Shown in pieces: positions 1 to 11,413 of a stretch of 11,413 nucleotides of DNA. The translations under genes and the position numbers were made by a program. This stretch comes from a virus: the UHGV virus genome UHGV-0295468; one strand, 5' to 3'. The notes beneath the pieces are model-generated. The model did not search any database and had not been told where the DNA came from. It saw nothing but the letters and a program-made list of their open reading frames with translations. Numbering within the stretch: the first letter of the stretch is position 1; every line of letters starts with the position of its first letter.

Positions 1-136
1 CACCTTATGACTGGAAGCCGATCAGGGTGGTTTGTCGTAAATGGTCGGCAAGCGTGGGGGCGTTGTGGGTAACCATAACGGCAGATTTTGAACAGGTCGT
101 GGCATAGGAGGCTCTGATGCAGGATATTCCACAGGA
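1..136. repeat. Left-terminal inverted-repeat arm: exact reverse complement of 287..422; carries an inverted copy of the M 3' end (plus-strand codons 3..107, stop 108..110) and of the first 6 codons of L (117..134)
   Basis: Base-by-base comparison: position i pairs with 423-i for i=1..136 with no mismatch; the match breaks at 137 vs 286. The arm runs to the window edge, so its true length may be larger. Confidence 0.95.
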
Positions 137-306
137 TGATACTGCCGCCCCTGCCAGGTAACCGGCTCACCTTTTTCGTTCTGCTCATTACAGAAAAAAT
201 AACGTTCACCACCGACCTCTGTCAGATCGATTTCCCAGAGCACCGCCTGGGCTGACTGAGTGAGGCGTGTCGTCTCATGATGTGTTTCCTGTGGAATATC
301 CTGCAT
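22..306 (-). CDS. L: Minor tail protein L, N-terminal fragment only. About 57 codons (306..137) are L-like; the rest of the 94-codon ORF (136..22) is out-of-frame read-through into the inverted-repeat arm
   Basis: Translation MQDIPQETHHETTRLTQSAQAVLWEIDLTEVGGERYFFCNEQNEKGEPVTWQGRQY closely matches the lambda gpL N-terminus as recalled. ATG at 306..304 lies 9 nt after the M stop, preceded by GAGG. Similarity stops exactly at the 136/137 repeat junction; lambda L is about 230 aa, so this copy is truncated. Confidence 0.8.
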   Translation of the reverse strand: MQDIPQETHHETTRLTQSAQAVLWEIDLTEVGGERYFFCNEQNEKGEPVTWQGRQYHPVEYPASEPPMPRPVQNLPLWLPTTPPRLPTIYDKPP

Positions 307-422
307 CAGAGCCTCCTATGCCACGACCTGTTCAAAATCTGCCGTTATGGTTACCCACAACGCCCCCACGCTTGCCGACCATTTACGACAAACCACCCTG
401 ATCGGCTTCCAGTCATAAGGTG
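287..422. repeat. Internal partner of the left inverted repeat; this copy is contiguous with the intact M gene and the L start codon
   Basis: Reverse complement of 1..136 (136/136). It lies within genuine coding context: L start ATG at 306..304, M stop TAG at 318..316, M C-terminal codons up to 422. Confidence 0.95.
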
Positions 423-645
423 GCGTCCACTGAAATGCGCGGACGCCACCGTGCCGTTCCAGAAAGGATTTTAAAGATGGGTGTTCACATTTACGAACAC
501 GTATCGTCACGCTGTAAGTCGACAACTGGTTATTCAGTCCCGCCGCACGACGCTGTTCATAACCATCGCCCAGCTTCACTGTCACCACTTTCGGCTCTGA
601 TACCACATTCATATCCGGGCGCACTTTCCAGTGAAACGTCTCCAT
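316..645 (-). CDS. M: Minor tail protein M (109 aa)
   Basis: Same length as lambda gpM with clear similarity along the protein (METFHWKV..., WTPPYDWKPIRV..., ...FEQVVA). ATG at 645..643 overlaps the H stop TAA (647..645) by one base; correct position between H and L. Confidence 0.9.
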   Translation of the reverse strand: METFHWKVRPDMNVVSEPKVVTVKLGDGYEQRRAAGLNNQLSTYSVTIRVRKCEHPSLKSFLERHGGVRAFQWTPPYDWKPIRVVCRKWSASVGALWVTITADFEQVVA

Positions 646-3600
646 TACCGATATGCTCCACTTAACCGACCACCATCACGGGCCTGCTGTTGCATAAAGT
701 CCGCTGCCGCTTTTTTCCCAAGGTCATAAACCACCTTCAGGGCAGCAGGACCTATCTGCCCGTTCGTGCCATCGTTATTGATCTCGATGTTGTACTGCGG
801 GGCAAACATCGCCATACCTGAACCACCAATATCCGCCACAACCCCCAGCTTACCGTCAGCACCACGACGCAGTGGCAGAATGGCTTCAGGTCCAGCTTCC
901 CCCATCACACCCGCGCCTTTTGCAAAAGCAAAAAACGTCGGACGGTTAACCACCGTGCCACTGTAGCGACTCAAATCAGCCGACTGATAAACACCGCCAT
1001 CAGCATTGGCTACAAAATCAAAAGGCAGCGCGGAAGCAATGCCTTTTACCGCTTTCATTAAAGCTATCTGAGCCATGATTCTGGACATATCTGACAGCAC
1101 AGAAGAGGTGAAGGATTTGAAATTGAGTTTGCCTGTAGTACAGAATGTCGCCAGCCAGTCACTCATGCTACTGAACGCAGACGTGAACAACTGTTCCACT
1201 GTCCCGGCTGTGTTATCCGCATTCTCAGTGACATTCTGGAGTGCACGCAGGACTCCGTTTTTCCAATTACCCTGAGCAATTTCAAGCCGTTGCCAGTAAC
1301 GGCGATTCTCATTCAGTTGTCGGTTCAGACTCTCCGTCAGCGCCTGCTCGGCCTTTCTGTAGTCATCCGTGTTATATGTCCCTTTCTGCTCACTATCCCG
1401 CCTCAACTGCTCCAGCTGTTGCTGGTATTTCTGGCGAAGACTCAGTTGTACCTGATATCGCTGCCGCTGCTGATCACCCATACCCACCGTGGCGATATCC
1501 AGGTCATGTTGCTGACGCTGAGCGCGCTCTTCTTCAGCCAGTTGACTGGTCAGCTGAATTGTTTTTTTCTTCAGATCGTTGAGTGCCGTCTGTTTCTGAA
1601 GCTCCTGCTGTTTTACATCCAGCAGCGTCAGTGCCTGAATCAGTTCATCTTTACGGGCCAGCACACTCTTTTCATCTGCCGTCAGTTTTTTCCCGTCCAG
1701 ATCGCTGATGCGCTGCTGCAGAGCCAGAAGCTGTTTATGCGCTTCTGTCATCTTTTCAGTGGCAATGCCTGCTGACTGTCTTGCAGCAGCAATCTGTCCT
1801 TCCACCTGTGCCTGTTGCTGACTGTACTGCAGCAATAACCGGGTGGCCTCATCATTACGGGTTTCGCGTGTTTTTTTCTTACCGGATGCCAGGGCTTTCT
1901 CGTAACGTTCATTTTCACGTTGTATCGCCGCATCCCTGACAGCCTGATCGGCGTACTGCATGGCATTAATACGCGCAATTTCACGCTGATGTCGTGCAGC
2001 TTCCGTTTCATTCATCCGGTTCAGTGCAGCATTTTCAGCATTACGGCGTTTCTGTTGCTCCTGATAATTCCGCTCTGCCTGCTCTTTTGCATCCTGCAAA
2101 TCCTTCTGGCGTTTTTTCTCCTGAAGATCGTTAAGACGCTGCTGATCGTATTCAACCTGAGAAGATGATGCCGTCCAGGGGAGTCTTTTCGCCCGCGACA
2201 CTTTCTCCTGCAAAGTGGCAATCTGCGCATCCAGCGAATCTTCACGACCAATATTCATGGCCGCATCCCAGAACTGCTTCCACCAGTCAGACAAAGTTTG
2301 CAGCGTACTGCCCAGCGCATTGAGGTTATTATCAATATCCGCAGTACGCCGACCGGTTTCCTCTGCCAGTGCAGACATGGCTATCCGTGCCGCATCACTG
2401 GACCGCCCCTGCTCTCCAAGGACGCGTATCTGCTCAAGCTGAGTGGCAGTAAGAAAATGCAGCTCATTGTCCAGAGACTTCGCGGCATTTACAGGATCAT
2501 CCTTCAGCCGCTTAAACTGATTTATGGTATCGCTGACCGACTGGCCAACCGATCGCTCCATCTGTGCGGCAGCTCTCGCCACCATACCGATATCGTTTCC
2601 ACGAAATGCACCACTCCCCACCACCTGAGCCAGCGCACCGGCTGCAGCATGTTGCGTGATACCATTCCCGGAAATAGCACGACTGAGCGTCCACAGCTGC
2701 CCGGCAGTGACTCCGGCATAATGCCCCGTCAGCGACAGCTGGCGGTTAAATTCTTCCCCCTCCTTCTGACCGTCATACCAGGCTTTACCCAGGCCATAGA
2801 CAGCCGCGGCAATACCGCCAATAACCCCGCCAAGCATCATGCCTTTCGGTGACATCAATGTGTCTATCCACCCGGCACGGTTAGCCAGCGTTATTCCGGA
2901 TCCCCTCAGCGCACCTAAATTTCCGCGGGCCAGTTCACCTATCAGAACGCCTATCTCCTGACGGGCCGCTGCACTTTTCAGCCCCAGCGAATGCGTGGCT
3001 TTTCCTGCCTGCTCCATTTTGCGGATATACACTTCTGCAGCACTGCTTACCCCCAGCTGGGCAGCCTTGGCACGAAGCAACTCAGAAGAAGAAAGATTCT
3101 GGCGGGTTGCCTGCTCTTTAAGCTGACGGATAAACGCCACTTTCTGTCGGGTAGCCTCTTCCTCAGCCTGTGTAAGAACACGGGTTTTCGCCGTAACCTC
3201 AGAAATCAGCGCCAGATAATCCTGCTGACCAATCCCGCCACTGTTTCTGGCCTGTCGGATCTGCTGCTGAATACGCTGTAATTCCTGCAGACCCGCACTG
3301 GCCTGTTTCACACTGTCAATCTGACGATAAAACGCAGCAGCCGCTTTATCCTGAGCCTCCGCCAGAGCCATGGCCTGCGCCTGTTCCTCGCGCATTTTCT
3401 GGCTCAGCGCCTCCATACGCTGGCGGGTTTTCTCCACCTCGCGGGCCATGCGTTCATGAGCCTGTGCGTTCTTCTCCACCGTCTGCGCATGGACGGATGC
3501 GGCTGTTGCAGCCGAAGACGCCGCCTGCGTTGTCTGCCGGGCGGCCTGAGTCTGACGCTCCATAAAACGCTGCATACGGGCAGAAGACCGTTCTGCATCG

Positions 3601-3701
3601 CTGGCTGCACCATTCAGAAGGTTTTTGATACGGGGGATTTCATTTTTAAACTCTGCCGCATCAATCCCCAAATCAATGACCAGGTTGGCTATCTGGTCCA
3701 T
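645..3701 (-). CDS. H: Tail tape measure protein (gpH-like), 1018 aa from the ATG at 3701
   Basis: N-terminus MDQIANLVIDLGIDAAEF and C-terminus INNDGTNGQIGPAALKVVYD...RDGGRLSGAYR match lambda gpH termini as recalled. Long Q/A/E/R-rich coiled-coil repeats and a Gly-rich hydrophobic segment are typical of tape measure proteins. ATG at 3701..3699 is preceded by GGAGGTG with 6-nt spacing; the ORF track starts 10 codons earlier at a TTG (3731), which I consider less likely. Confidence 0.92.
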   Translation of the reverse strand: MDQIANLVIDLGIDAAEFKNEIPRIKNLLNGAASDAERSSARMQRFMERQTQAARQTTQAASSAATAASVHAQTVEKNAQAHERMAREVEKTRQRMEALSQKMREEQAQAMALAEAQDKAAAAFYRQIDSVKQASAGLQELQRIQQQIRQARNSGGIGQQDYLALISEVTAKTRVLTQAEEEATRQKVAFIRQLKEQATRQNLSSSELLRAKAAQLGVSSAAEVYIRKMEQAGKATHSLGLKSAAARQEIGVLIGELARGNLGALRGSGITLANRAGWIDTLMSPKGMMLGGVIGGIAAAVYGLGKAWYDGQKEGEEFNRQLSLTGHYAGVTAGQLWTLSRAISGNGITQHAAAGALAQVVGSGAFRGNDIGMVARAAAQMERSVGQSVSDTINQFKRLKDDPVNAAKSLDNELHFLTATQLEQIRVLGEQGRSSDAARIAMSALAEETGRRTADIDNNLNALGSTLQTLSDWWKQFWDAAMNIGREDSLDAQIATLQEKVSRAKRLPWTASSSQVEYDQQRLNDLQEKKRQKDLQDAKEQAERNYQEQQKRRNAENAALNRMNETEAARHQREIARINAMQYADQAVRDAAIQRENERYEKALASGKKKTRETRNDEATRLLLQYSQQQAQVEGQIAAARQSAGIATEKMTEAHKQLLALQQRISDLDGKKLTADEKSVLARKDELIQALTLLDVKQQELQKQTALNDLKKKTIQLTSQLAEEERAQRQQHDLDIATVGMGDQQRQRYQVQLSLRQKYQQQLEQLRRDSEQKGTYNTDDYRKAEQALTESLNRQLNENRRYWQRLEIAQGNWKNGVLRALQNVTENADNTAGTVEQLFTSAFSSMSDWLATFCTTGKLNFKSFTSSVLSDMSRIMAQIALMKAVKGIASALPFDFVANADGGVYQSADLSRYSGTVVNRPTFFAFAKGAGVMGEAGPEAILPLRRGADGKLGVVADIGGSGMAMFAPQYNIEINNDGTNGQIGPAALKVVYDLGKKAAADFMQQQARDGGRLSGAYR

Positions 3702-4035
3702 AACGCACACCTCCGGAAATACCTTCCCCAAGATGCATCAGTTCTTCGTCCGTTCGCTCCGGTATCCCGTTCTCTTCCGGTAAAAGGCTGAAATCAGCCA
3801 CCGCAGCATCACTGCTGCCGGACACCATTCTCACGATCAATGCCTTCAGCGAGGCAAACTGCGCATCCATCCACACATCACTGAAGCTCTGCATCCGGAA
3901 ATAATCGCCCCACTCACCAAGCTCAGTGGCCGACATTTCCGACAGCATCCGCCGCCAGTCTGCCCGCCGGAACTCCCGGGCAAGCCGCATGACAAACTGC
4001 ATTTCCCGCGTCAGGACTTTTCCGGCGTCAGCGCC
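3673..4035 (-). CDS. T: Tail assembly protein T segment: the -1 frame ORF overlapping the 3' end of G, probably expressed only as a G-T fusion by programmed -1 frameshifting
   Basis: The -1 frame relative to G is open from 4035 (just after an in-frame stop at 4038..4036) to the stop at 3675..3673. It overlaps the G stop and sits between G and H exactly as lambda T does. A lysine-codon slip site lies one codon before the G stop. The internal ATG at 4002 has no obvious Shine-Dalgarno sequence. Confidence 0.65.
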   Translation of the reverse strand, partial: GADAGKVLTREMQFVMRLAREFRRADWRRMLSEMSATELGEWGDYFRMQSFSDVWMDAQFASLKALIVRMVSGSSDAAVADFSLLPEENGIPERTDEELMHLGEGISGGVRYGPDSQPGH

Positions 4036-4397
4036 TCATGCTCATCATCCCCGGCATTATCAATGGCCCCCATACCGCTCAGCGACAGAACCATCTCCGC
4101 CCCCGCACCCAGGGCATCATACGACCATGTTGTAATAACGGATGCGCAAAGCGTCTCTACATCCTTAGACTGATCCGCATTCCACAGTGAGCGGGAAACC
4201 AGCCAGGCATTGATATCCATCCCCATCCGCAGAAAAGCAATCTGTCGTTCAGCCTCCGGCAGTTCTCCCTCACCGGCATCAAACTTTGCCGTTCGCTGCT
4301 GAACAAACGCCAGATATTCAATTCTCTGCAACCCGGACAGCTCACTGAGCACCACGGACTGTTTTTCATAATTAAACGTGCCCTGTTTCAGAAACAT
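4011..4397 (-). CDS. G: Tail assembly chaperone G (128 aa from the ATG at 4397)
   Basis: Translation MFLKQGTFNYEKQSVVLSELSGLQRIEYLAF... resembles lambda gpG (MFLK..., TLSELSALQRIEHLA...). GGTGGAG Shine-Dalgarno 6 nt upstream of the ATG at 4397..4395. The ORF-track start at 4439 is a TTG inside the upstream hairpin and is unlikely. Confidence 0.85.
   Translation of the reverse strand: MFLKQGTFNYEKQSVVLSELSGLQRIEYLAFVQQRTAKFDAGEGELPEAERQIAFLRMGMDINAWLVSRSLWNADQSKDVETLCASVITTWSYDALGAGAEMVLSLSGMGAIDNAGDDEHEALTPEKS
4017..4023 (-). other. Candidate -1 ribosomal frameshift site GGAAAAG (minus strand) linking G to T
   Basis: G-frame codons read CCG GAA AAG TCC TGA. An AAG-to-AAA lysine tRNA slip at 4019..4017 would enter the T frame. 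The only window where both frames are open is 4035..4014. The motif differs from lambda's GGGAAAG as recalled. Confidence 0.5.
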
Positions 4398-4413
4398 CAT
4401 GTTCTCCACCTGC

Positions 4414-4437
4414 AAAAAAGCCCCGGATAACCGGGGC
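4414..4437 (-). terminator. Intrinsic-terminator-like hairpin between V and G: 7-bp GC stem (GCCCCGG/CCGGGGC), 4-nt loop, followed on the coding strand by TTTTTT
   Basis: Plus strand 4420..4437 is gccccgg-ataa-ccggggc, preceded by A6 at 4414..4419; on the minus (coding) strand this is a stem-loop followed by a U6 tract, 20 nt after the V stop and immediately before the G ribosome-binding site. Confidence 0.55.
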
Positions 4438-4457
4438 AAATGATGAGTATCGTCCTG

Positions 4458-5201
4458 TTAACCTGCGGCGCTGACAGTCACCGCAGCCACAGCCACAAAA
4501 TTCCCGTCAGCGGTCATGCCCACAATGCTGACACTGCCCTGCTTCACGCCTTTCACCGTGGCCACAAGCCCGTTCAGGGTCACCGTGGCAGTCTGTGGAT
4601 CTGACGAATGCACACTGATCGCTTTGTCACTGGCTCCGTCAGGTTTTACTGTAAAGGTCAGCGTGGTGGTTGCTCCCACTTTTACACTGGCAGATGCCGG
4701 TGCCACCGTCAGCCCGGTAACGCTCACTGTTTCAGTGCCTTCCTCTGCCAGATACGGACGCCCCACACCGCTGATTTTCACAGTGCGGGTCATCACGTCT
4801 TTTGAGGCAATGGTTTTACCCAGTGAACTCAGCCAGCCACGGAAAACATCAACAGTACCGTTGGGATATTTGATACGAAACGCGCAGACTTCACCGGAGT
4901 CGAACAACTGAACCAGTTTTTTCTGCCCGCTGTCACCCGGACGCCAGGCCAGCGTCGCCGAAGTATCACCGACTGATTTCTGCCCCTGGGTTGTCGTTTT
5001 CCAGTCTGCATCTTCATCATCGAGATAAGTATCATCTTCTGCATCAGCGGTCATTTCGCCAGGTTGCAGATCCTTCACCATCGCAAGACGCAGCCAGTCA
5101 GTGTCCGACAAAGGGTTCGCAAATGCGTCGCCGTTGCCGGTATACATCCAGAACGTCGTCCCCGCACCTTTCGTCTTTGCCAGTGGATTTGGTGTGGTCA
5201 T
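4458..5201 (-). CDS. V: Major tail protein V with C-terminal Ig-like domain (247 aa from the ATG at 5201)
   Basis: Strong similarity to lambda gpV as recalled (KGAGTTFWMYTGNGDAFANPLSD..., DTYLDDEDADW..., YPNGTVDVFRGWLSS...). Perfect AAGGAGG Shine-Dalgarno 5 nt upstream of the ATG at 5201..5199. The C-terminal ~90 aa are Thr/Val/Ser-rich and Ig-like. The ORF-track start (GTG at 5276) would overlap U. Confidence 0.92.
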   Translation of the reverse strand: MTTPNPLAKTKGAGTTFWMYTGNGDAFANPLSDTDWLRLAMVKDLQPGEMTADAEDDTYLDDEDADWKTTTQGQKSVGDTSATLAWRPGDSGQKKLVQLFDSGEVCAFRIKYPNGTVDVFRGWLSSLGKTIASKDVMTRTVKISGVGRPYLAEEGTETVSVTGLTVAPASASVKVGATTTLTFTVKPDGASDKAISVHSSDPQTATVTLNGLVATVKGVKQGSVSIVGMTADGNFVAVAAVTVSAAG

Positions 5202-5211
5202 TGCCACCTCC

Positions 5212-5613
5212 TTAATTCGTGTACGTGATCTGGTACGTGATTTCCGCCATCGCCCAGGTGGCCATCTCATTATCACGTTGATAGTTAAAACCGAGTGGGA
5301 TCAGGGTGTCGATGAGTCCGGAAAGTGCCGGTACATCATTCAGGGCCGGGAAAATGGTGCTCTCCATCCACATATCCAGCTCTGAATCCGGTGCCTGTGC
5401 CCGGATGAAGACAGCAATATGCAGAACAGCCTGCCAGTCATCTTCATCCGTCATTTTTCCGGTGTACTGAGCATCACTCAGCCACACCGCCACGGCAGGC
5501 AGTTCCTGCGCATCAACAAATGCCGGAAGCCCGTCAAAAAACGTGGCGCTGTCTCCACACTGTTCCCGAAGGCGTGCCAGTACGACCTGGCGGATTTGTG
5601 TATGTCGGTTCAT
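5212..5613 (-). CDS. U: Tail terminator protein U (133 aa from the ATG at 5613; an alternative ATG at 5625 gives 137 aa)
   Basis: Similarity to lambda gpU (ATFFDG..., PAVAV..., YTG, DSELD.WMES, ITY.ITY). The ATG at 5613..5611 overlaps the Z stop TGA (5612..5610) in an ATGA arrangement, suggesting translational coupling. Confidence 0.88.
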   Translation of the reverse strand: MNRHTQIRQVVLARLREQCGDSATFFDGLPAFVDAQELPAVAVWLSDAQYTGKMTDEDDWQAVLHIAVFIRAQAPDSELDMWMESTIFPALNDVPALSGLIDTLIPLGFNYQRDNEMATWAMAEITYQITYTN

Positions 5614-6188
5614 CGGGTCAGCCATAACCTCAGTTGTTGTTTCAGTGCATACCCCAGCTGTTTCGGCATTTCCGCAGCAATGATGCGGTCGCGGGCATCT
5701 TCAAATGCCTGTGTCAGCGGTCCGGACAGCGGGATTTTCACCACATCAATGGGGTAACGATTTTTGCCATCAATACGCCGCATCACATGCCAGCGACCAT
5801 TCGCCAGTTGCTGAATAAACGCATCCCGGAAAAGATATTTACCCACCTTCAGCACACTGCCACGGTACTGCAGTTTTCCACCACGCCGGGCCAGTCTGAC
5901 CCGGGCTGTCCCCAGCTTAATGGCGGGAAGATTGCCCCGGTTAACGCGGATCCTGGCCGTCATTTTTCCTGACGGACTGGCTTTAAACACCCGGACACGC
6001 TGACGTACCAGTTTCAGGGGGATCCCTTTCACCTGGTTATCTCCCGCAACGGTATTCCCGGCAACCTGCCGGGTGGCAACCGAGACCGCTTTCTGTGCCA
6101 CACGGTTTATCGCCCATGCGCTGGCCTGTGGCACCATACGGGTATCAAGGCTGTTCAGATTGCGGATGGCATTCTCAAGCCCCTTCAT
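5610..6188 (-). CDS. Z: Minor tail protein Z (192 aa)
   Basis: Same length as lambda gpZ with near-collinear similarity (MKGLE..., PQASAW.INRVA, QRVRVFKA, IRVNRG.LPAIKLG, NGRWHVM.R..GKNRYPIDVVKIP, LGYAL). GAGGTG Shine-Dalgarno 5 nt upstream of the ATG at 6188..6186. Confidence 0.92.
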   Translation of the reverse strand: MKGLENAIRNLNSLDTRMVPQASAWAINRVAQKAVSVATRQVAGNTVAGDNQVKGIPLKLVRQRVRVFKASPSGKMTARIRVNRGNLPAIKLGTARVRLARRGGKLQYRGSVLKVGKYLFRDAFIQQLANGRWHVMRRIDGKNRYPIDVVKIPLSGPLTQAFEDARDRIIAAEMPKQLGYALKQQLRLWLTR

Positions 6189-6199
6189 CCCACACCTCT

Positions 6200-6775
6200 T
6201 TACTCAATAAAGATCATTGGCTTACCGTTAAAGCGTTCATGCCGTGTGACCGTCCATTGTTGTCCGTCATAAACAACGCGATCCCCGCGCCGTGGGCGGT
6301 ATCCCGAAGAAAACACCACCAGAGAGACTCTGATCCCTTTTCCCGGTTGGCAGCGCGTATGGATGCGATCACGGTCAGAAAGATGGGAAAGACAGCCTCG
6401 ATTAATGATGTCGATATGGCTGTGATCCCGGGAGAAACACTGGCAGAGCTGAATGCTCTGTCCGGACCTCGGCACTTCTTCTGCACTGGTTCCGGCATCT
6501 GCCCAGACAACCCCGACCAGCGGCTCAGAGCCGCTGTTAGTCAGCTGAACTTTTCCTGACTTCAGATAAACCTTCTTACCCGTTTTCATGTCATCCGTTT
6601 TCAGCTTAGGCAGCATAAACACACCTTCGGTTATGCCGTCGCCTGTTTCTCCCTGTGGAATATCGGTCAGCGCCACCGCAAAAACATCCCCCACCTGCAC
6701 CAGATCTCCGCTGCTGATGGCTGCACTGGCAACAATCGCCACCGTTTTTCCTTCTTCTACAAAATTCTTTGCCAT
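6200..6775 (-). CDS. Continuous 191-codon ORF: N-terminal ~115 aa resemble a gpD-like head decoration protein; C-terminal ~45 aa resemble head-tail joining protein gpFII; no stop codon between them
   Basis: ATG at 6775..6773 with GGAGA Shine-Dalgarno 5 nt upstream. N-terminal part (KTVAIVASAAISSGD..., YLKSGKVQL, VVWADAGTSAEE) resembles lambda gpD (AAVGILAVAAD, FYKSGTFRY, VLWPEAASDE). The C-terminus (GKGIRVSLVVF...RRGDRVVYDGQQWTV) resembles the lambda gpFII C-terminal region (GQGVRV...SLFV...RRGDTLTIGEENFWV). Whether this is one fused protein or two genes merged by a frameshift is unresolved. Confidence 0.55.
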   Translation of the reverse strand: MAKNFVEEGKTVAIVASAAISSGDLVQVGDVFAVALTDIPQGETGDGITEGVFMLPKLKTDDMKTGKKVYLKSGKVQLTNSGSEPLVGVVWADAGTSAEEVPRSGQSIQLCQCFSRDHSHIDIINRGCLSHLSDRDRIHTRCQPGKGIRVSLVVFSSGYRPRRGDRVVYDGQQWTVTRHERFNGKPMIFIE

Positions 6776-6818
6776 AACTGTCTCCGCACAGCCCCGTTCA
6801 GGGGCTGATTTCAGGTAC

Positions 6819-6838
6819 AAAAAAAGCCCTTACGGGCC
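6819..6838 (-). terminator. Weak terminator-like hairpin after the capsid ORF: 4-5 bp GC stem with GTAA loop followed by T7 on the coding strand
   Basis: Minus strand reads ggcccgtaagggc followed by ttttttt (plus-strand A7 at 6819..6825), 24 nt downstream of the capsid stop. The stem is short, so this is tentative. A second 5-bp GC hairpin (plus 6791..6805) sits just upstream of the next ribosome-binding site. Confidence 0.35.
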
Positions 6839-6861
6839 ATCAGAGTTGTTGTCTGCGACGT

Positions 6862-8820
6862 TTACGCCGTACATTTCACCAGGCCGCGGTGATCAACTGG
6901 CGCAACACCAGCGTCAATACGCACTTTCGTTGTCACGCCATCCACACTGAAGCCCTCCATCTGATCAATATATGGCGTATCCACACCGTTGAGATAAGCC
7001 ACTTCAATCGTATCGGAGCCTTTGGACGCAGCCAGGTAGAAGGTGGTCTGGCTGTTATCATCAAGACGAGGCTCTGCAATAACGGTCGCAAAATCTTTCA
7101 CCGGGTTAATAATACCGGCGTTAATGTCAGCCCCCTTGACACTTGAGGAGCGAATGACCTGGTTAGCAACAGACTCCATCGCCGTCGGTACCAGTACGAA
7201 CGCAGGACGAATATTCAGATGACGCTCACCCTCTTTCTGAACGCGCATCAACTGGCGGGCTTTATCCAGCGATGCCACGTCCATTGCCGCGCTCTCCAGT
7301 ACGTTTGCATGTTTCGCTTTATCGAACAGACTTACATTATCTGTGGAGATTTTCGGGTTAGACGTCAGAATGGCATAAACCAGATCGGCAATAGTGGATT
7401 TCGCCGCACGGCCCAGCTTCATCGGGACATCGGTCAGCATATTCAGATCATCATTGATAATGGCCTGACGGGTGATACTGAACAGCTCGCCATAGGTCGC
7501 CAGTGCAATAGTGGCCTGTTTATCTCCGGTGGTGACGTATTTATATTCTGCCCCTTCACGCACCTGACGCAGAGCACTGAAGCCCCCCATACCCACACGA
7601 TGGGCAATTTTAAAATCAGACAACTGACCTTTCCGCGTCCACTGTTCATAGGTTTCAGGGGCATCTTCCCAGCCCTGCAGAATGGCTTTGTTCGCAACAT
7701 CCAGCAGAATATTACCGAAGTCAGACGTACTGTGTGTGAACGCCGCACCGACCATCTGCATCGGGTTATAACTGGAAACACCAATACCACGTTCAGTCAG
7801 TGACATACGGGCATATTCACGCAGGGTCATCCCGTTGTAGACATTATCACGTTCAGTTTTTTCAAACCCGGCGCGCGCCATCAGCGCCTGGCGGATCCCG
7901 TCCCCCACAAAATTACCGTTACCGGCATAAATATGAGCCGGGGTATTTTTATTGGATGGCGTGGACTCGCGCCCCATCTCGTTCAACAGCTTTTCGCGGG
8001 CCTGCTCCAGCGAACATTCAGGATCGGCAAGACACTGAGCCTGCAACGACTGATAACGCCCGCCAAACATGGCAAACAGATCATTAATACCGTTTACACG
8101 CGCTTTTTGCTCTGCCAGGACCTGCGCACGGATGCTGTTTTCATCCACCACGGGTGCTGCTGCCTGCACTGGCGTCCGGGAGGCTGCAGGTCCATCATCC
8201 TGTACGCGTGGAGCACTGTTGCGTGGCGGAGTAATCATATTTCGAATGGATTCCGGCATCTTTTTAAATTCCTCTGTACGTTTTGACTGAATACATGCCA
8301 TTGCCTTAACGGCTGGTGTCACCTGATCAGCAAATCCCTGTGCCAGACATTCGGCACCGGACATCCAGGTCTCATCCGCCAGCATGGCAGCAATTTCATC
8401 GGTGGTTTTCCCGGTTTTCTGTGCATAAGCGGGTAACAGAACCGCCTCAACTTTATCGAGCAGGTCGGCATAGGTGCGCATGTCCTCCGCATCACCGCCC
8501 GTAAAGCCAAATGGTTTATGAATCATCATGAAGGAGTTTTCCGGCATAATGACCGGGTTTCCCACCATCGCAATGACCGACGCCATTGACGCCGCCACAC
8601 CGTCGACATAAACGGTAATGGACGCACCATGTGTTTTCAGTGCATTAAAAATGGCGATGCCTTCAAAGACATCGCCACCCGGTGAATTAATATGGAGATT
8701 AATGTGGGTGATATCGCCCAGTGCATTCAGATCACTGATAAACTGCTTCGCCGTAACACCCCAGAAACCAATCTCGTCATAAATATAAATATCCGCGTCA
8801 CTCTGGTGACCTGCCTGCAT
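6862..8820 (-). CDS. Prohead protease (ClpP/S14-like), scaffold-like linker and HK97-fold major capsid region in one 652-aa ORF
   Basis: N-terminal ~200 aa have ClpP-like features (IYIYDEIG..., INSPGGDVFEGIAIFNALK, VDGVAASMASVIAM, MIHKP). The middle is a charged Ala/Gln-rich region. The C-terminal ~330 aa look like an HK97-type capsid protein (no lambda gpE similarity). ATG at 8820..8818 lies 13 nt after the portal stop. The ORF-track extension to 9081 starts at a TTG and overlaps the portal by ~250 nt. Confidence 0.78.
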   Translation of the reverse strand: MQAGHQSDADIYIYDEIGFWGVTAKQFISDLNALGDITHINLHINSPGGDVFEGIAIFNALKTHGASITVYVDGVAASMASVIAMVGNPVIMPENSFMMIHKPFGFTGGDAEDMRTYADLLDKVEAVLLPAYAQKTGKTTDEIAAMLADETWMSGAECLAQGFADQVTPAVKAMACIQSKRTEEFKKMPESIRNMITPPRNSAPRVQDDGPAASRTPVQAAAPVVDENSIRAQVLAEQKARVNGINDLFAMFGGRYQSLQAQCLADPECSLEQAREKLLNEMGRESTPSNKNTPAHIYAGNGNFVGDGIRQALMARAGFEKTERDNVYNGMTLREYARMSLTERGIGVSSYNPMQMVGAAFTHSTSDFGNILLDVANKAILQGWEDAPETYEQWTRKGQLSDFKIAHRVGMGGFSALRQVREGAEYKYVTTGDKQATIALATYGELFSITRQAIINDDLNMLTDVPMKLGRAAKSTIADLVYAILTSNPKISTDNVSLFDKAKHANVLESAAMDVASLDKARQLMRVQKEGERHLNIRPAFVLVPTAMESVANQVIRSSSVKGADINAGIINPVKDFATVIAEPRLDDNSQTTFYLAASKGSDTIEVAYLNGVDTPYIDQMEGFSVDGVTTKVRIDAGVAPVDHRGLVKCTA

Positions 8821-8833
8821 CCTGAACCAGGAA

Positions 8834-10342
8834 TTATTCTTCGGACTGGTCGTCGGTGTGCTGCGGCTCCTGTCGTTTCGTTGCGGCACTGCTGCCTCCT
8901 TTATCACTGGCCGGATCGGTATCAAATACCAGATCCAGCTTGCGGTTTTCATCAATTTCGGCCTTGCGCCGACGTTTGACATCATCTGGATTACGACCAC
9001 CTGCACGTACCCAGTCTGATTCTGTCGCCGCTCCACCACGAATCTGAATTTTCCAGGCCTCAGCCTCCTTAACAGGGTCAATCCACGGCATCACCGGTCC
9101 GGAATACACCGCGGTATACAGTGAAGAACGATCAAGATCGCGGGGTAGCCTGATAACACCGGATGCCACAGCCTGTTTCAGCCAGGCACGATACATCGGG
9201 CGGGTGACGGCACCAATAAACCAGTCCTGCAGGATCAGGTAGCCATCAGTGGATTCAACCAGCTCCTGACGCTGGGCGCTGTAAGTGCCGTTATAGTTGC
9301 GCGCTGTACTGGAAAAACTCAGACGACTGCCCGCCGCCACGGCACGCAACTGACCATTACGAAAAGTTTCAAGATTAGGATTGGGGCGATCCGACTTCAC
9401 CATTCCGATTTCTTCGCCGGGTTTCAGATCGTCGTAAATAATGCCTGGCTGAATGGTAAGCTCGCGTTCCTTATCCTTGCTGCCATTACCATCCGGTTCA
9501 TAGCTCTGCCCGTCGCCTTTCCGGATGTACATCCCCAGAGCAGCGGCGATCCTTGCTGCAGTCAGCTCAGAATCTTCATACTCTTTCAGGGCACTGAGGC
9601 GGATCAGCACACCGGACAACAAAGACGTCCCGCGCATCTGGTGCAGACGGCGAACAAATTTAAGATGCAGCATTCGCTCTGCATCCACTTCTTTGGTTTC
9701 CATCTGCCGTCCGGATACGGGACGGCTTTTATACACCAGATATTTTTCGGGACGCCCCCAGTCATCAACAAACACGCCCTGATTCAGCCTGTTGCTCTCA
9801 TCACTGGTCATGGGAATAAAGTCCGGCTCGAGCGCCTCCAGCCAGAAATGAACACCGGCAGAAGGCGTCAGGCTGTTTATGCGCCCGGAAACCATCTGGG
9901 CAAACACCTCACCATCGCGCAGCCAGGTACGCAACATCAGACGTTCCAGCATCGGACGGGTAAACTGCCCGGTGACTTCCGGACTGACAGACCATTCACT
10001 CCATCGGGTGCGTATCTCCGCTGCCAGATCACGGGCAATGGCCCCATTGCGTAATACCGGATGTGGCTCGACAATAATCCCGTTTTTCCCCACCACCCGT
10101 TCTTCCAGCTTGTCAAATACACCAATGACCAGATCGTGGTTGTTATCAAGGTAACGGGCCTGCTCACGTAACGACACGGCCCCGTACTGGCTTAACTGGT
10201 CGGCAGTTCGGTTTTCCCGCCGGGCTTTGTGTGTCCGCGTCGTTTTTACGGCCTCATAAGCCTGGATCACCGCACGGGAACGCAGCCTTGCCGCTTTCCA
10301 TCCTGGTGAAAAAACGCCAATCACATCATCAAGAATTGCCAT
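8834..10342 (-). CDS. Portal protein (502 aa from the ATG at 10342)
   Basis: Size and position (between W/terminase and the protease-capsid gene) are typical of a portal; acidic C-terminal tail. The ATG at 10342..10340 overlaps the W stop TGA (10344..10342) in an ATGA arrangement. Assignment rests on synteny and general appearance, not on a recalled alignment. Confidence 0.8.
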   Translation of the reverse strand: MAILDDVIGVFSPGWKAARLRSRAVIQAYEAVKTTRTHKARRENRTADQLSQYGAVSLREQARYLDNNHDLVIGVFDKLEERVVGKNGIIVEPHPVLRNGAIARDLAAEIRTRWSEWSVSPEVTGQFTRPMLERLMLRTWLRDGEVFAQMVSGRINSLTPSAGVHFWLEALEPDFIPMTSDESNRLNQGVFVDDWGRPEKYLVYKSRPVSGRQMETKEVDAERMLHLKFVRRLHQMRGTSLLSGVLIRLSALKEYEDSELTAARIAAALGMYIRKGDGQSYEPDGNGSKDKERELTIQPGIIYDDLKPGEEIGMVKSDRPNPNLETFRNGQLRAVAAGSRLSFSSTARNYNGTYSAQRQELVESTDGYLILQDWFIGAVTRPMYRAWLKQAVASGVIRLPRDLDRSSLYTAVYSGPVMPWIDPVKEAEAWKIQIRGGAATESDWVRAGGRNPDDVKRRRKAEIDENRKLDLVFDTDPASDKGGSSAATKRQEPQHTDDQSEE

Positions 10343-10554
10343 CAGAACCTCGCAAGCCGGTACCCGGGATGCCCCCGTCGTCGTGTAATCAGAGCCGCAA
10401 GGCGGCGCTCCCACTCCTGCCGTCCCTGCCGGATCTCAGATAAGTTTTCCATGGTCATCTGCTGACCATTAAAGGTGACGGATTTTCCGTCCAGCACCGC
10501 CATTTCAGCTTCCGTATAACGCTGAATCATGGCTTCGATATCATTCTGGTTCAT
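10342..10554 (-). CDS. W: Head-tail joining protein, gpW-like (70 aa from the ATG at 10554)
   Basis: Small protein directly after the terminase gene with a C-terminal RRRGHPGY motif resembling lambda gpW (RRRGPAGF). The ATG at 10554..10552 overlaps the terminase stop TGA (10553..10551); GGAGG lies 6 nt upstream. The track ATG at 10560 has no spacer after the Shine-Dalgarno sequence. Confidence 0.7.
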   Translation of the reverse strand: MNQNDIEAMIQRYTEAEMAVLDGKSVTFNGQQMTMENLSEIRQGRQEWERRLAALITRRRGHPGYRLARF

Positions 10555-11330
10555 AACCATCCTCCGGAAGTCAGCCAGGGGTTAACATCGTCAGTTACTG
10601 TTTTCTTCCGTTTTTGTTTTTTAACAGGCGTGGATACCGGTTCCGGTGTGGGTGACGGTTCGGTACTGTCCGGGACACACTCCAGCCAGGTTTCCCGGCT
10701 CGCCCACTCCGGTGCATCCGGCCAGCGGATCTTTTCGTATCCATGCAGAATGACCAGAGCCTCGGCATACACCATCAGGTCAAAAGCTTCGTTGGCACCG
10801 CGACCCGGCTTACTCCATTTCCCGTCACTGCTCCGCTCTTCATACGTCAGTTCGTCGTAAAACCAGCTCCCCAGCCAGTCAGGGAAATGCACATAGCCGG
10901 GACCTGGCGAGTCACGCCATAACGCGTTATTCACCCGGTCTTTCAGGGCATCCGTCTGAAGAAGCCAGAGCGGTACATCACCTGCGGCCTGCGCCCGTCG
11001 GCCCGTTCGTCCGGTGTTATCAGGGAATGTACGGGTGATCAGTTTTGCGCGCCGGATGCTGTCGCCCTTAAACAGGTAAATACGTTTACCAAGGCCATCA
11101 CGACGGCAACGACGCCAGAATTTATAGGCATTATCAGTGACCCCGTCTTCACCGCCGGAGTCCACCGCCATTGCCATCAGTCGCATTTGTTGAGAAGGAT
11201 CGGAGGCCAGCGGCCAGCTTTTATGAAAAACATCCGTCAGCAGGACATCCCAGTCTTCCGGATAGCTGGCCGGATCAATTCGCTGGCTCTCCCCGATGGC
11301 GGTGGACTCCGGCGGTGAAGACGGGGTCAC
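10551..11330 (-). CDS. A: Terminase large subunit, C-terminal fragment only (about 248 codons, 11294..10551); the codons above 11295 are read-through into the right inverted-repeat arm and the N-terminal ATPase part is absent
   Basis: Position immediately upstream of W and portal with ATGA coupling to W; globular, Trp/Asp-rich sequence typical of a terminase nuclease domain. The ORF-track start is a GTG inside the inverted-repeat arm. Assignment is by synteny and general appearance; not verified by search. Confidence 0.7.
   Translation of the reverse strand: MTPSSPPESTAIGESQRIDPASYPEDWDVLLTDVFHKSWPLASDPSQQMRLMAMAVDSGGEDGVTDNAYKFWRRCRRDGLGKRIYLFKGDSIRRAKLITRTFPDNTGRTGRRAQAAGDVPLWLLQTDALKDRVNNALWRDSPGPGYVHFPDWLGSWFYDELTYEERSSDGKWSKPGRGANEAFDLMVYAEALVILHGYEKIRWPDAPEWASRETWLECVPDSTEPSPTPEPVSTPVKKQKRKKTVTDDVNPWLTSGGWL
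11054..11171. repeat. Internal partner of the right inverted repeat, inside the terminase coding sequence
   Basis: Exact reverse complement of 11296..11413 (118/118); position i pairs with 22467-i; the match breaks at 11172 vs 11295. Confidence 0.95.
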
Positions 11331-11413
11331 TGATAATGCCTATAAATTCTGGCGTCGTTGCCGTCGTGATGGCCTTGGTAAACGTATTTACCTGTTTAAG
11401 GGCGACAGCATCC
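11296..11413. repeat. Right-terminal inverted-repeat arm: exact reverse complement of 11054..11171, running to the window edge
   Basis: Base-by-base comparison with no mismatch over 118 bp, separated from its partner by a 124-bp unique spacer (11172..11295). The arm reaches the last base of the window, so the true length is unknown. Confidence 0.95.

What the first reader, a model, noticed from the sequence alone, without database searches (positions are those of the whole stretch)
1..11413. The window is a sub-genomic phage fragment bounded on both sides by fold-back junctions
The unique sequence covers only terminase C-terminus through L N-terminus, and both flanks fold back on themselves within about 150 bp. 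Two independent, perfectly identical, similarly built junctions at either end are unlikely to be unrelated. The pattern fits inverted chimeras from strand-displacement amplification, a palindromic amplicon, or an assembly artefact at contig ends. If biological, it would be a small palindrome-ended packaging-to-tail segment without replication, lysis, integration or tail-tip genes, and therefore defective.
Basis: inference. Interest (0 to 1): 0.6.

Follow-up and report, generated by a model that had tools for sequence, protein, structure and literature searches.

The report
Fold-back ends are sequence-construction artefacts
The window is an ordinary E. coli lambdoid prophage head-to-tail gene block in which three read-sized pieces (both ends and one internal 141-bp stretch) sit in the wrong orientation, which points to a sequencing or assembly artefact rather than a palindrome-ended phage element.

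Summary
Bases 1-136 are the perfect reverse complement of 287-422, and 11296-11413 of 11054-11171, and both outer arms touch the window ends. The fold-backs are not a property of the phage. The native block 137-11295 is collinear with about 1,800 complete E. coli genomes and cdtI/mEp460-like phages. These run on past both junctions into the rest of gene L and the rest of the large terminase gene. No genome holds either junction. The whole window can be rebuilt base for base (11413/11413) from one E. coli chromosome using five pieces and four strand-switch junctions. All four junctions are blunt, with no microhomology. Their breakpoints lie 125-155 nt apart, and the flipped pieces are 118-141 nt long. 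Blunt junctions argue against strand-displacement (MDA) chimeras and against repair or replication events in the cell. Verdict: not a real feature, low interest. Only the reads can decide the exact technical route.

The parts
1..136 (.). Left outer arm: non-native, an exact reverse complement of 287-422. It is joined bluntly to base 137.
   Evidence: Identity to the sequence that really precedes base 137 in the reference is 21%, which is random. It carries the same alleles as the inner copy at the positions (window 360 and 406) that distinguish two prophage copies in one genome.
137..6328 (-). Native block A: L (first 57 codons, 137-306), M-like minor tail (316-645), tape measure (645-3701), T (3673-4002), G (4011-4397), major tail V-like (4458-5201), U (5212-5613), Z (5610-6188), and the 3' part of the FII-like/Gifsy-2 family head-closure gene (6200-6328).
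   Evidence: 100% identical to L013 (E. coli GCA_964052905.1) over 6192 nt.
287..422 (.). Left inner arm: native sequence (start of L and end of the M-like gene) that served as the source of the outer arm.
6329..6469 (.). Internal 141-bp piece in flipped orientation. Its parent bases CGC and CATTGAGTTTTAC (3 and 13 nt) are missing at its two edges. It fuses the DUF2190/cement-like gene and the head-closure gene into one 206-codon ORF (6200-6820, minus strand).
   Evidence: None of the 1,826 E. coli genomes or 16 phages that carry this region has it collinear. The fused protein is not on record.
6470..11295 (-). Native block C: DUF2190/Phage_cement_2 gene lacking its last codons (6470-6775), ClpP-like protease/major capsid fusion (6862-8889), portal (8834-10342), 70-aa DUF6148 protein (10342-10554), and the large terminase C-terminal 248 codons (10551-11295).
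   Evidence: 100% identical to L013 over 4826 nt. Annotation.
11054..11171 (.). Right inner arm: native sequence inside the large terminase gene, and the source of the right outer arm.
11296..11413 (.). Right outer arm: non-native, an exact reverse complement of 11054-11171. It is joined bluntly to base 11295.
   Evidence: Identity to the true continuation of the terminase gene is 22%.

Best explanation
The record is a normal cdtI/mEp460-like lambdoid prophage head-tail block from E. coli. Three read-sized pieces (136, 141 and 118 nt) were placed in it on the wrong strand when the sequence was built, so the fold-backs were made in silico and were never a DNA molecule. Each of the four junctions reads as the 3' end of one short read butted directly against the 5' start of its mate as sequenced, with no overlap. 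The implied fragment sizes are 286 and 242 bp at the ends and about 260-290 bp for the internal pair. Joins of this kind survive only where no true read contradicts them. An extension procedure that uses each read once would stop at the end of the chimeric read, so each arm would be one mate long. What is shown: the anatomy, the blunt junctions, and the absence of the junctions from every genome searched. What is inferred: the step that made the joins (unsplit mates, a gap-closing or scaffolding step, or another in-silico join).
For: (1) The window is rebuilt exactly, 11413 of 11413 bases with no point difference, from one chromosome as rc(arm) + A + rc(141 nt) + C + rc(arm). (2) All four junctions have 0 nt of microhomology in either direction. 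(3) All four are strand switches, with breakpoints 151, 145, 155 and 125 nt apart, and the flipped pieces are 136, 141 and 118 nt long. Those are the dimensions of short reads and short inserts. (4) Both terminal arms end exactly at the ends of the record. (5) The complete genomes examined continue normally past both ends. No complete E. coli genome holding the halves has a junction: 0 of 4,124 and 0 of 1,957. The inversion is in 0 of 1,826 genomes and 0 of 16 phages. The junction 36-mers are absent from the viral, species-representative genome and metagenome contig collections. (6) All three breaks fall inside genes (L, large terminase, head-closure and cement genes), not at any element boundary. 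(7) Contig ends joined to their own reverse complement are a described assembly artefact, the 'double-strand hairpins' giving 'a chimeric palindromic sequence' (PMC6736328). 'Partial reverse complements' from misassembly are also reported (10.1101/092916).
Against: The source record, its assembler and its reads are unknown, so no read-level test was possible. A standard de Bruijn assembler would give arms equal to k at both ends, but these are 136 and 118 nt. The unsplit-mates model needs variable (trimmed) read lengths and locally very low coverage, yet the consensus has no error in 11.4 kb. Any fold-back junction can be read as a convergent read pair, so only the distances and the bluntness discriminate, not the geometry.
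Confidence: 0.65

Rival explanations
1. The chimeras were physical molecules made in vitro and then assembled faithfully. Possible routes are whole-genome amplification by phi29 (MDA), hairpin self-priming during cDNA or second-strand synthesis, or fold-back artefacts of end repair or enzymatic fragmentation.
For: Inverted joins between nearby segments are the dominant MDA chimera: 85% are inverted and most are less than 10 kb apart (PMC1855051). Reads from amplified DNA can carry several palindromic junctions each (PMC6218980), and three events in 11 kb would fit a heavily amplified template. The rnaSPAdes authors see the same hairpin topology in RNA-seq and single-cell MDA data.
Against: Polymerase-primed switches leave microhomology. 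At least 2 bp of complementarity is seen in 93.5% of proximal inverted MDA junctions, against 0 of 4 here. If the junctions are independent, that is roughly 0.065^4, about 2e-5. MDA gives no reason for flipped pieces of 118-141 nt, for a narrow 125-155 nt spacing, or for arms that stop at the record ends. A chimeric molecule would also have to outvote normal copies at an internal site.
Confidence: 0.25
2. The structure is real DNA from a cell. It would be a defective sub-genomic prophage fragment with fold-back (inverted-duplication) ends and an internal inversion, produced by break repair or replication template switching.
For: Nothing excludes it absolutely, because the reads cannot be seen. 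The three rearrangements share a size scale, which one odd process could produce.
Against: It is absent from every genome and collection searched. There is no point divergence from an intact prophage. All breaks lie inside essential genes. Junctions with no microhomology are not what fold-back priming, template switching or E. coli end joining produce (established knowledge, not tested here). Hairpin-capped ends would give a spacer of a few bases, not 124-150 nt. The fragment has no replication, integration or packaging (cos, small terminase) functions.
Confidence: 0.05
3. The outer arms come from a second, inverted prophage copy or a genuine inverted repeat in the host genome that confused the assembler.
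For: E. coli genomes carry a median of 2 and up to 12 matches to this window. In GCA_964052905.1 two prophages share a 12,729-bp perfect repeat.
Against: The parent region has no inverted repeat at these sites. The left arm carries the alleles of the same copy as the body, while the paralogous copy L012 differs at 2 of 136 positions. The window ends do not coincide with the repeat's edges. A de Bruijn join through a repeat needs a shared k-mer, and the junctions share none.
Confidence: 0.02

Closest known systems
Chimeric 'double-strand hairpin' connections at contig ends in de Bruijn graph assemblies (described for rnaSPAdes, PMC6736328)
   Same: A correct sequence is joined to its own reverse complement at its end, which gives a palindromic contig terminus. 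The connection is not present in the organism.
   Different: In a pure de Bruijn contig the arm should equal k at both ends, but here the arms are 136 and 118 nt. There is also an internal flipped piece. The data type and assembler are unknown.
Inverted chimeras of multiple displacement amplification (Lasken and Stockwell 2007, PMC1855051)
   Same: Inverted orientation, partners a short distance apart on the same molecule, and an intervening stretch skipped.
   Different: Proximal MDA junctions nearly always show 2-21 nt of complementarity, and all four junctions here show none. MDA does not predict read-sized pieces or arms that end at the record's ends.
Lambdoid phages cdtI and mEp460 and the matching E. 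coli prophages (HK97-like head genes, lambda-like tail genes)
   Same: The native 11.16 kb is 98.0-98.5% identical to these phages, up to 99.6% to the complete RefSeq E. coli genomes, and 100% to one prophage (L013). It has the same gene order from the large terminase to L.
   Different: Those genomes have no fold-back at either site and carry the 141-bp segment in the other orientation with 16 more bases.
Hairpin telomeres of linear phage-plasmids (N15 type) and inverted terminal repeats used as a completeness signal for viral contigs
   Same: Only superficial: there is inverted-repeat sequence at the ends of a linear phage-derived record.
   Different: Telomere hairpins are palindromes without a 124-150 nt spacer, lie at a dedicated site and need a protelomerase. 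True ITRs pair the left end with the right end. Here each end pairs with itself, inside genes L and terL.

Membership tests
Assembly/sequence-construction hairpin artefact | The contig terminus is the reverse complement of sequence a short way inside the same contig | tested here: met
   arms of 136 and 118 nt at 100%, with spacers of 150 and 124 nt. Both arms end at the record ends.
Assembly/sequence-construction hairpin artefact | The junction is absent from independent genomes that carry both flanking halves | tested here: met
   (0 of 4,124 and 0 of 1,957 genomes); for the inversion; for three contig collections.
Assembly/sequence-construction hairpin artefact | No or minimal read support for the junctions, with single-copy depth on the arms | not testable with these tools
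   The reads and the source record are not available. The chimeric proteins are not on record.
MDA inverted chimera | Two segments joined in inverted orientation, less than 10 kb apart, with the intervening sequence skipped | tested here: met
   breakpoints 125-155 nt apart, and all four junctions are strand switches.
MDA inverted chimera | Short complementarity (at least 2 nt) where the displaced 3' end primed, as in 93.5% of proximal inverted junctions | tested here: not met
   0 nt at all four junctions. The criterion comes from PMC1855051.
Hairpin-telomere linear phage (N15-like) | A terminal perfect palindrome without a spacer at a conserved telomere site, shared by relatives | tested here: not met
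   Spacers of 150 and 124 nt. The sites lie inside genes L and terL. Relatives lack them.
Viral genome with inverted terminal repeats | The left terminus is the reverse complement of the right terminus | tested here: not met
   no inverted repeat links 1-136 with 11296-11413.
cdtI/mEp460-like lambdoid prophage structural module | Collinear high-identity match and gene order terL-portal-protease/capsid-head completion-Z-U-V-G-T-H-M-L | tested here: met
   98.0-100% identity over 137-6328 and 6470-11295.
Logan (SRA-wide Minia) contig | All 31-mers within an accession's contigs are distinct | tested here: not met
   Perfect inverted repeats of 136 and 118 nt repeat many canonical 31-mers. The property is stated in PMC12424806.

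The most novel reading that the evidence does not exclude
The fold-backs and the inversion are real. On this reading a sub-genomic, palindrome-ended linear DNA was derived from an induced lambdoid prophage by a homology-independent strand-switching process, acting three times within 11 kb at a scale of about 140 nt.
Probability: 0.04. Interest if true: 0.5.

Novelty: not a real feature. Interest (0 to 1): 0.07.

Why it matters
It matters mainly as quality control. Records like this create false 'terminal inverted repeats', false fusion proteins and truncated genes that can pollute viral catalogues and protein databases. Here those are a 94-aa L chimera at 22-306 and a 206-codon cement/head-closure fusion at 6200-6820. 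The signature found here is simple to screen for: each end pairs with itself rather than with the other end, the junctions are blunt, the flipped pieces are read-sized, and the sequence is otherwise identical to intact relatives. If the structures were real, they would point to an unusual homology-independent inversion process, but nothing here supports that.

Tried and rejected
(1) I looked for the source record or any second occurrence. The junction 36-mers give no hit in viral contigs, genome contigs or metagenome contigs. Exact look-ups of the two chimeric proteins give nothing. Look-ups of the tape measure and portal alleles return only long, normal contigs, because these alleles are very common (1,073 and 14,688 blocks).

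(2) I tested whether the contig simply ends at repeat boundaries. In GCA_964052905.1 the two prophage copies share a 12,729-bp perfect repeat, but the window's native ends do not coincide with its edges. This is not supported for that genome and cannot be tested for the unknown source.

(3) I tested whether the arms come from a paralogous prophage. The allele pattern rejects this.

(4) Logan as the source is rejected because Logan contigs have distinct 31-mers.

(5) The lambda-type G-T slippery heptamer GGGAAAG is not present on the coding strand. The single hit at 6385 is on the other strand and no more than chance. The end of G reads CCG GAA AAG TCC TGA. I did not pursue this.

(6) One numerical lead comes from memory only. 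141 equals the default largest k of MEGAHIT, and 118 is one less than its next k of 119, but 136 fits nothing. I could derive no mechanism and leave it as a possible coincidence.

(7) I considered simulating unsplit mates with a home-made greedy assembler. I dropped it because the outcome would depend on my own design choices and could not discriminate between the explanations.
Full report
**Observation.** The window carries two perfect inverted repeats. Bases 1-136 pair with 287-422 (150-nt spacer), and 11296-11413 pair with 11054-11171 (124-nt spacer) (string check). The next best inverted repeats are 25-27 nt at 78-80%, so these two are far beyond chance. As a single strand, the left 422 nt would fold into a 136-bp stem (-208 kcal/mol, z = -35), which only restates the repeat. 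Both outer arms end exactly at the window's first and last base. The two ends are not related to each other.

**What the sequence is.** All real genes lie on the minus strand and form the late structural block of a lambdoid phage. In order they are:
- the large terminase (C-terminal 248 codons);
- a 70-aa DUF6148 protein;
- the portal;
- a ClpP-like protease/major-capsid fusion;
- a DUF2190/cement-like protein;
- a Gifsy-2-family (FII-like) head-closure protein;
- Z, U and the major tail protein;
- G, T and the tape measure;
- an M-like protein;
- the first 57 codons of L.

The closest phages are cdtI (98.5%) and mEp460 (98.0%). Of 5,426 complete E. coli genomes, 1,802 hold at least 80% of the window, at up to 99.6% identity.

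**The fold-backs are not part of the element.** In every listed hit the collinear match runs from 137 to 11295, which is exactly between the outer arms. In E. coli E1 (L001) the sequence to the left of 137 is the rest of gene L followed by K, I and J. The sequence to the right of 11295 is the rest of the large terminase gene followed by the small terminase gene. The outer arms are 21% and 22% identical to these true continuations, which is random. Junction-spanning 160-mers are covered to at least 80% in 0 of 4,124 and 0 of 1,957 complete genomes that contain their halves. The junction 36-mers are absent from the viral, species-representative genome and metagenome contig collections.

**A third rearrangement.** Alignment to the reference showed that 6329-6469 is the reverse complement of the corresponding reference segment. 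At its two edges 3 nt (CGC) and 13 nt (CATTGAGTTTTAC) are missing. The flip removes the start of the head-closure gene and the last codons of the cement-like gene, and it fuses them into a 206-codon ORF (6200-6820, minus strand). None of the 1,826 E. coli genomes or 16 phages that carry this region has the window's arrangement. The fused protein is not on record.

**Exact reconstruction.** One complete chromosome, GCA_964052905.1 (locus L013), matches every block at 100%. Five pieces of it reproduce the window base for base, 11413 of 11413: rc(arm), block A, rc(141 nt), block C, rc(arm). The record therefore differs from an intact prophage only by four strand-switch junctions and 16 lost bases, with no point change.
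- All four junctions have 0 nt of microhomology in either direction.
- The paired breakpoints are 151, 145, 155 and 125 nt apart.
- The flipped pieces are 136, 141 and 118 nt long.
- The left arm carries the alleles of the same prophage copy as the body. A second, 98.5%-matching copy in the same genome differs at two arm positions. So the arm is a copy of the neighbouring sequence and not a paralogue.

**Mechanism.** Polymerase-based strand switches need a few paired bases. This applies to MDA, to hairpin self-priming and to replication template switching. In the reference study of MDA chimeras, 85% were inverted, and 93.5% of inverted junctions less than 10 kb apart showed at least 2 bp of complementarity (PMC1855051). 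Four of four junctions without any complementarity has a probability of about 2e-5 on that figure, if the junctions are independent. For blunt random joins, four junctions with no shared base is unremarkable: (9/16)^4, about 0.1 (my calculation). Blunt ligation of library fragments would join random partners, not partners 125-155 nt apart (inference).

The combination that remains is blunt junctions, strand switches only, partners within a short-insert distance, flipped pieces no longer than a short read, and arms that stop at the record's ends. All of this is expected if short reads were butted together in silico.
- Every junction can be read as the 3' end of one mate followed directly by the 5' start of the other mate as sequenced.
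- The implied fragments are 286 bp (137-422) and 242 bp (11054-11295) at the ends, and about 260-290 bp for the two internal junctions if reads are 118-136 nt.
- Such joins would be outvoted wherever true reads overlap. They would survive only where coverage ends, which explains the two termini and the 3-nt and 13-nt losses beside the internal piece.
- An extension scheme that consumes reads would halt at the end of the chimeric read, so the arm would equal the mate length.

This chain is inference, because I could not see the reads or the assembler. Contig ends joined to their own reverse complement are a described artefact class (PMC6736328; 10.1101/092916). The window is not a Logan contig, since those have distinct 31-mers (PMC12424806).

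**Rivals.**
- In-vitro chimeras remain possible (0.25), because the hairpin topology is typical of them, but the missing microhomology counts heavily against them.
- A real cellular structure is unlikely (0.05). It was seen in none of the genomes or contig collections searched and shows no divergence from an intact prophage. Its breaks lie inside essential genes. Its spacers are far longer than a hairpin cap. The fragment has no replication or packaging functions.
- Origin from a second prophage copy or a genomic inverted repeat is essentially excluded.

**Comparison and novelty.** As a gene block this is an already known lambdoid structural module. As a structure it belongs with chimeric hairpin artefacts. 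It fails the defining tests for MDA chimeras (microhomology), for hairpin telomeres (no spacer, dedicated site) and for inverted terminal repeats (left end pairing with right end). I rate it 'not a real feature' with an interest of about 0.07. Its value is as a screening signature for corrupted records and for the false fusion proteins they create. The decisive test is mapping the original reads; the predictions for each explanation are given under next steps.

Noticed in passing
window 6329-6469: A 141-bp segment is inverted relative to every relative searched, with 3 nt and 13 nt lost at its edges. It fuses the cement-like and head-closure genes into a 206-codon ORF (6200-6820, minus strand).
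   Followed up: yes
L012 and L013 (both GCA_964052905.1), locus coordinates 7224-19952: Two prophages in one E. coli chromosome share a 12,729-bp perfect repeat running from the small terminase gene to the start of L. Their early and lysis regions are unrelated. The window matches the L013 copy exactly.
   Followed up: partly
window 137-11295 against L001 (E. coli E1): Differences from the best RefSeq match are very uneven. There are 4 substitutions in 137-6328 and 42 in 6470-11295, most of them in 8119-10974. This suggests a recombination mosaic among closely related prophages.
   Followed up: no
(contig-length classes for the tape measure and portal alleles): The exact portal allele occurs in 14,688 blocks of the collection and the tape measure allele in 1,073. 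In both cases the commonest contig-length class is 10-20 kb, so this head-tail block often sits on contigs of 10-20 kb in public assemblies.
   Followed up: partly
window 4011-4040, minus strand: The end of the G-like chaperone gene reads CCG GAA AAG TCC TGA and lacks the lambda GGGAAAG slippery heptamer. How the G-T fusion is made in this phage group was not examined.
   Followed up: no
window 8834-8889: The portal gene and the 675-aa ClpP-like protease/major-capsid fusion gene overlap by 56 nt, as annotated in all relatives.
   Followed up: no
window 22-306, minus strand: The left fold-back creates a 94-aa ORF made of the first 57 residues of L followed by 37 residues of antisense-derived sequence. 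A gene caller would report this false protein.
   Followed up: partly
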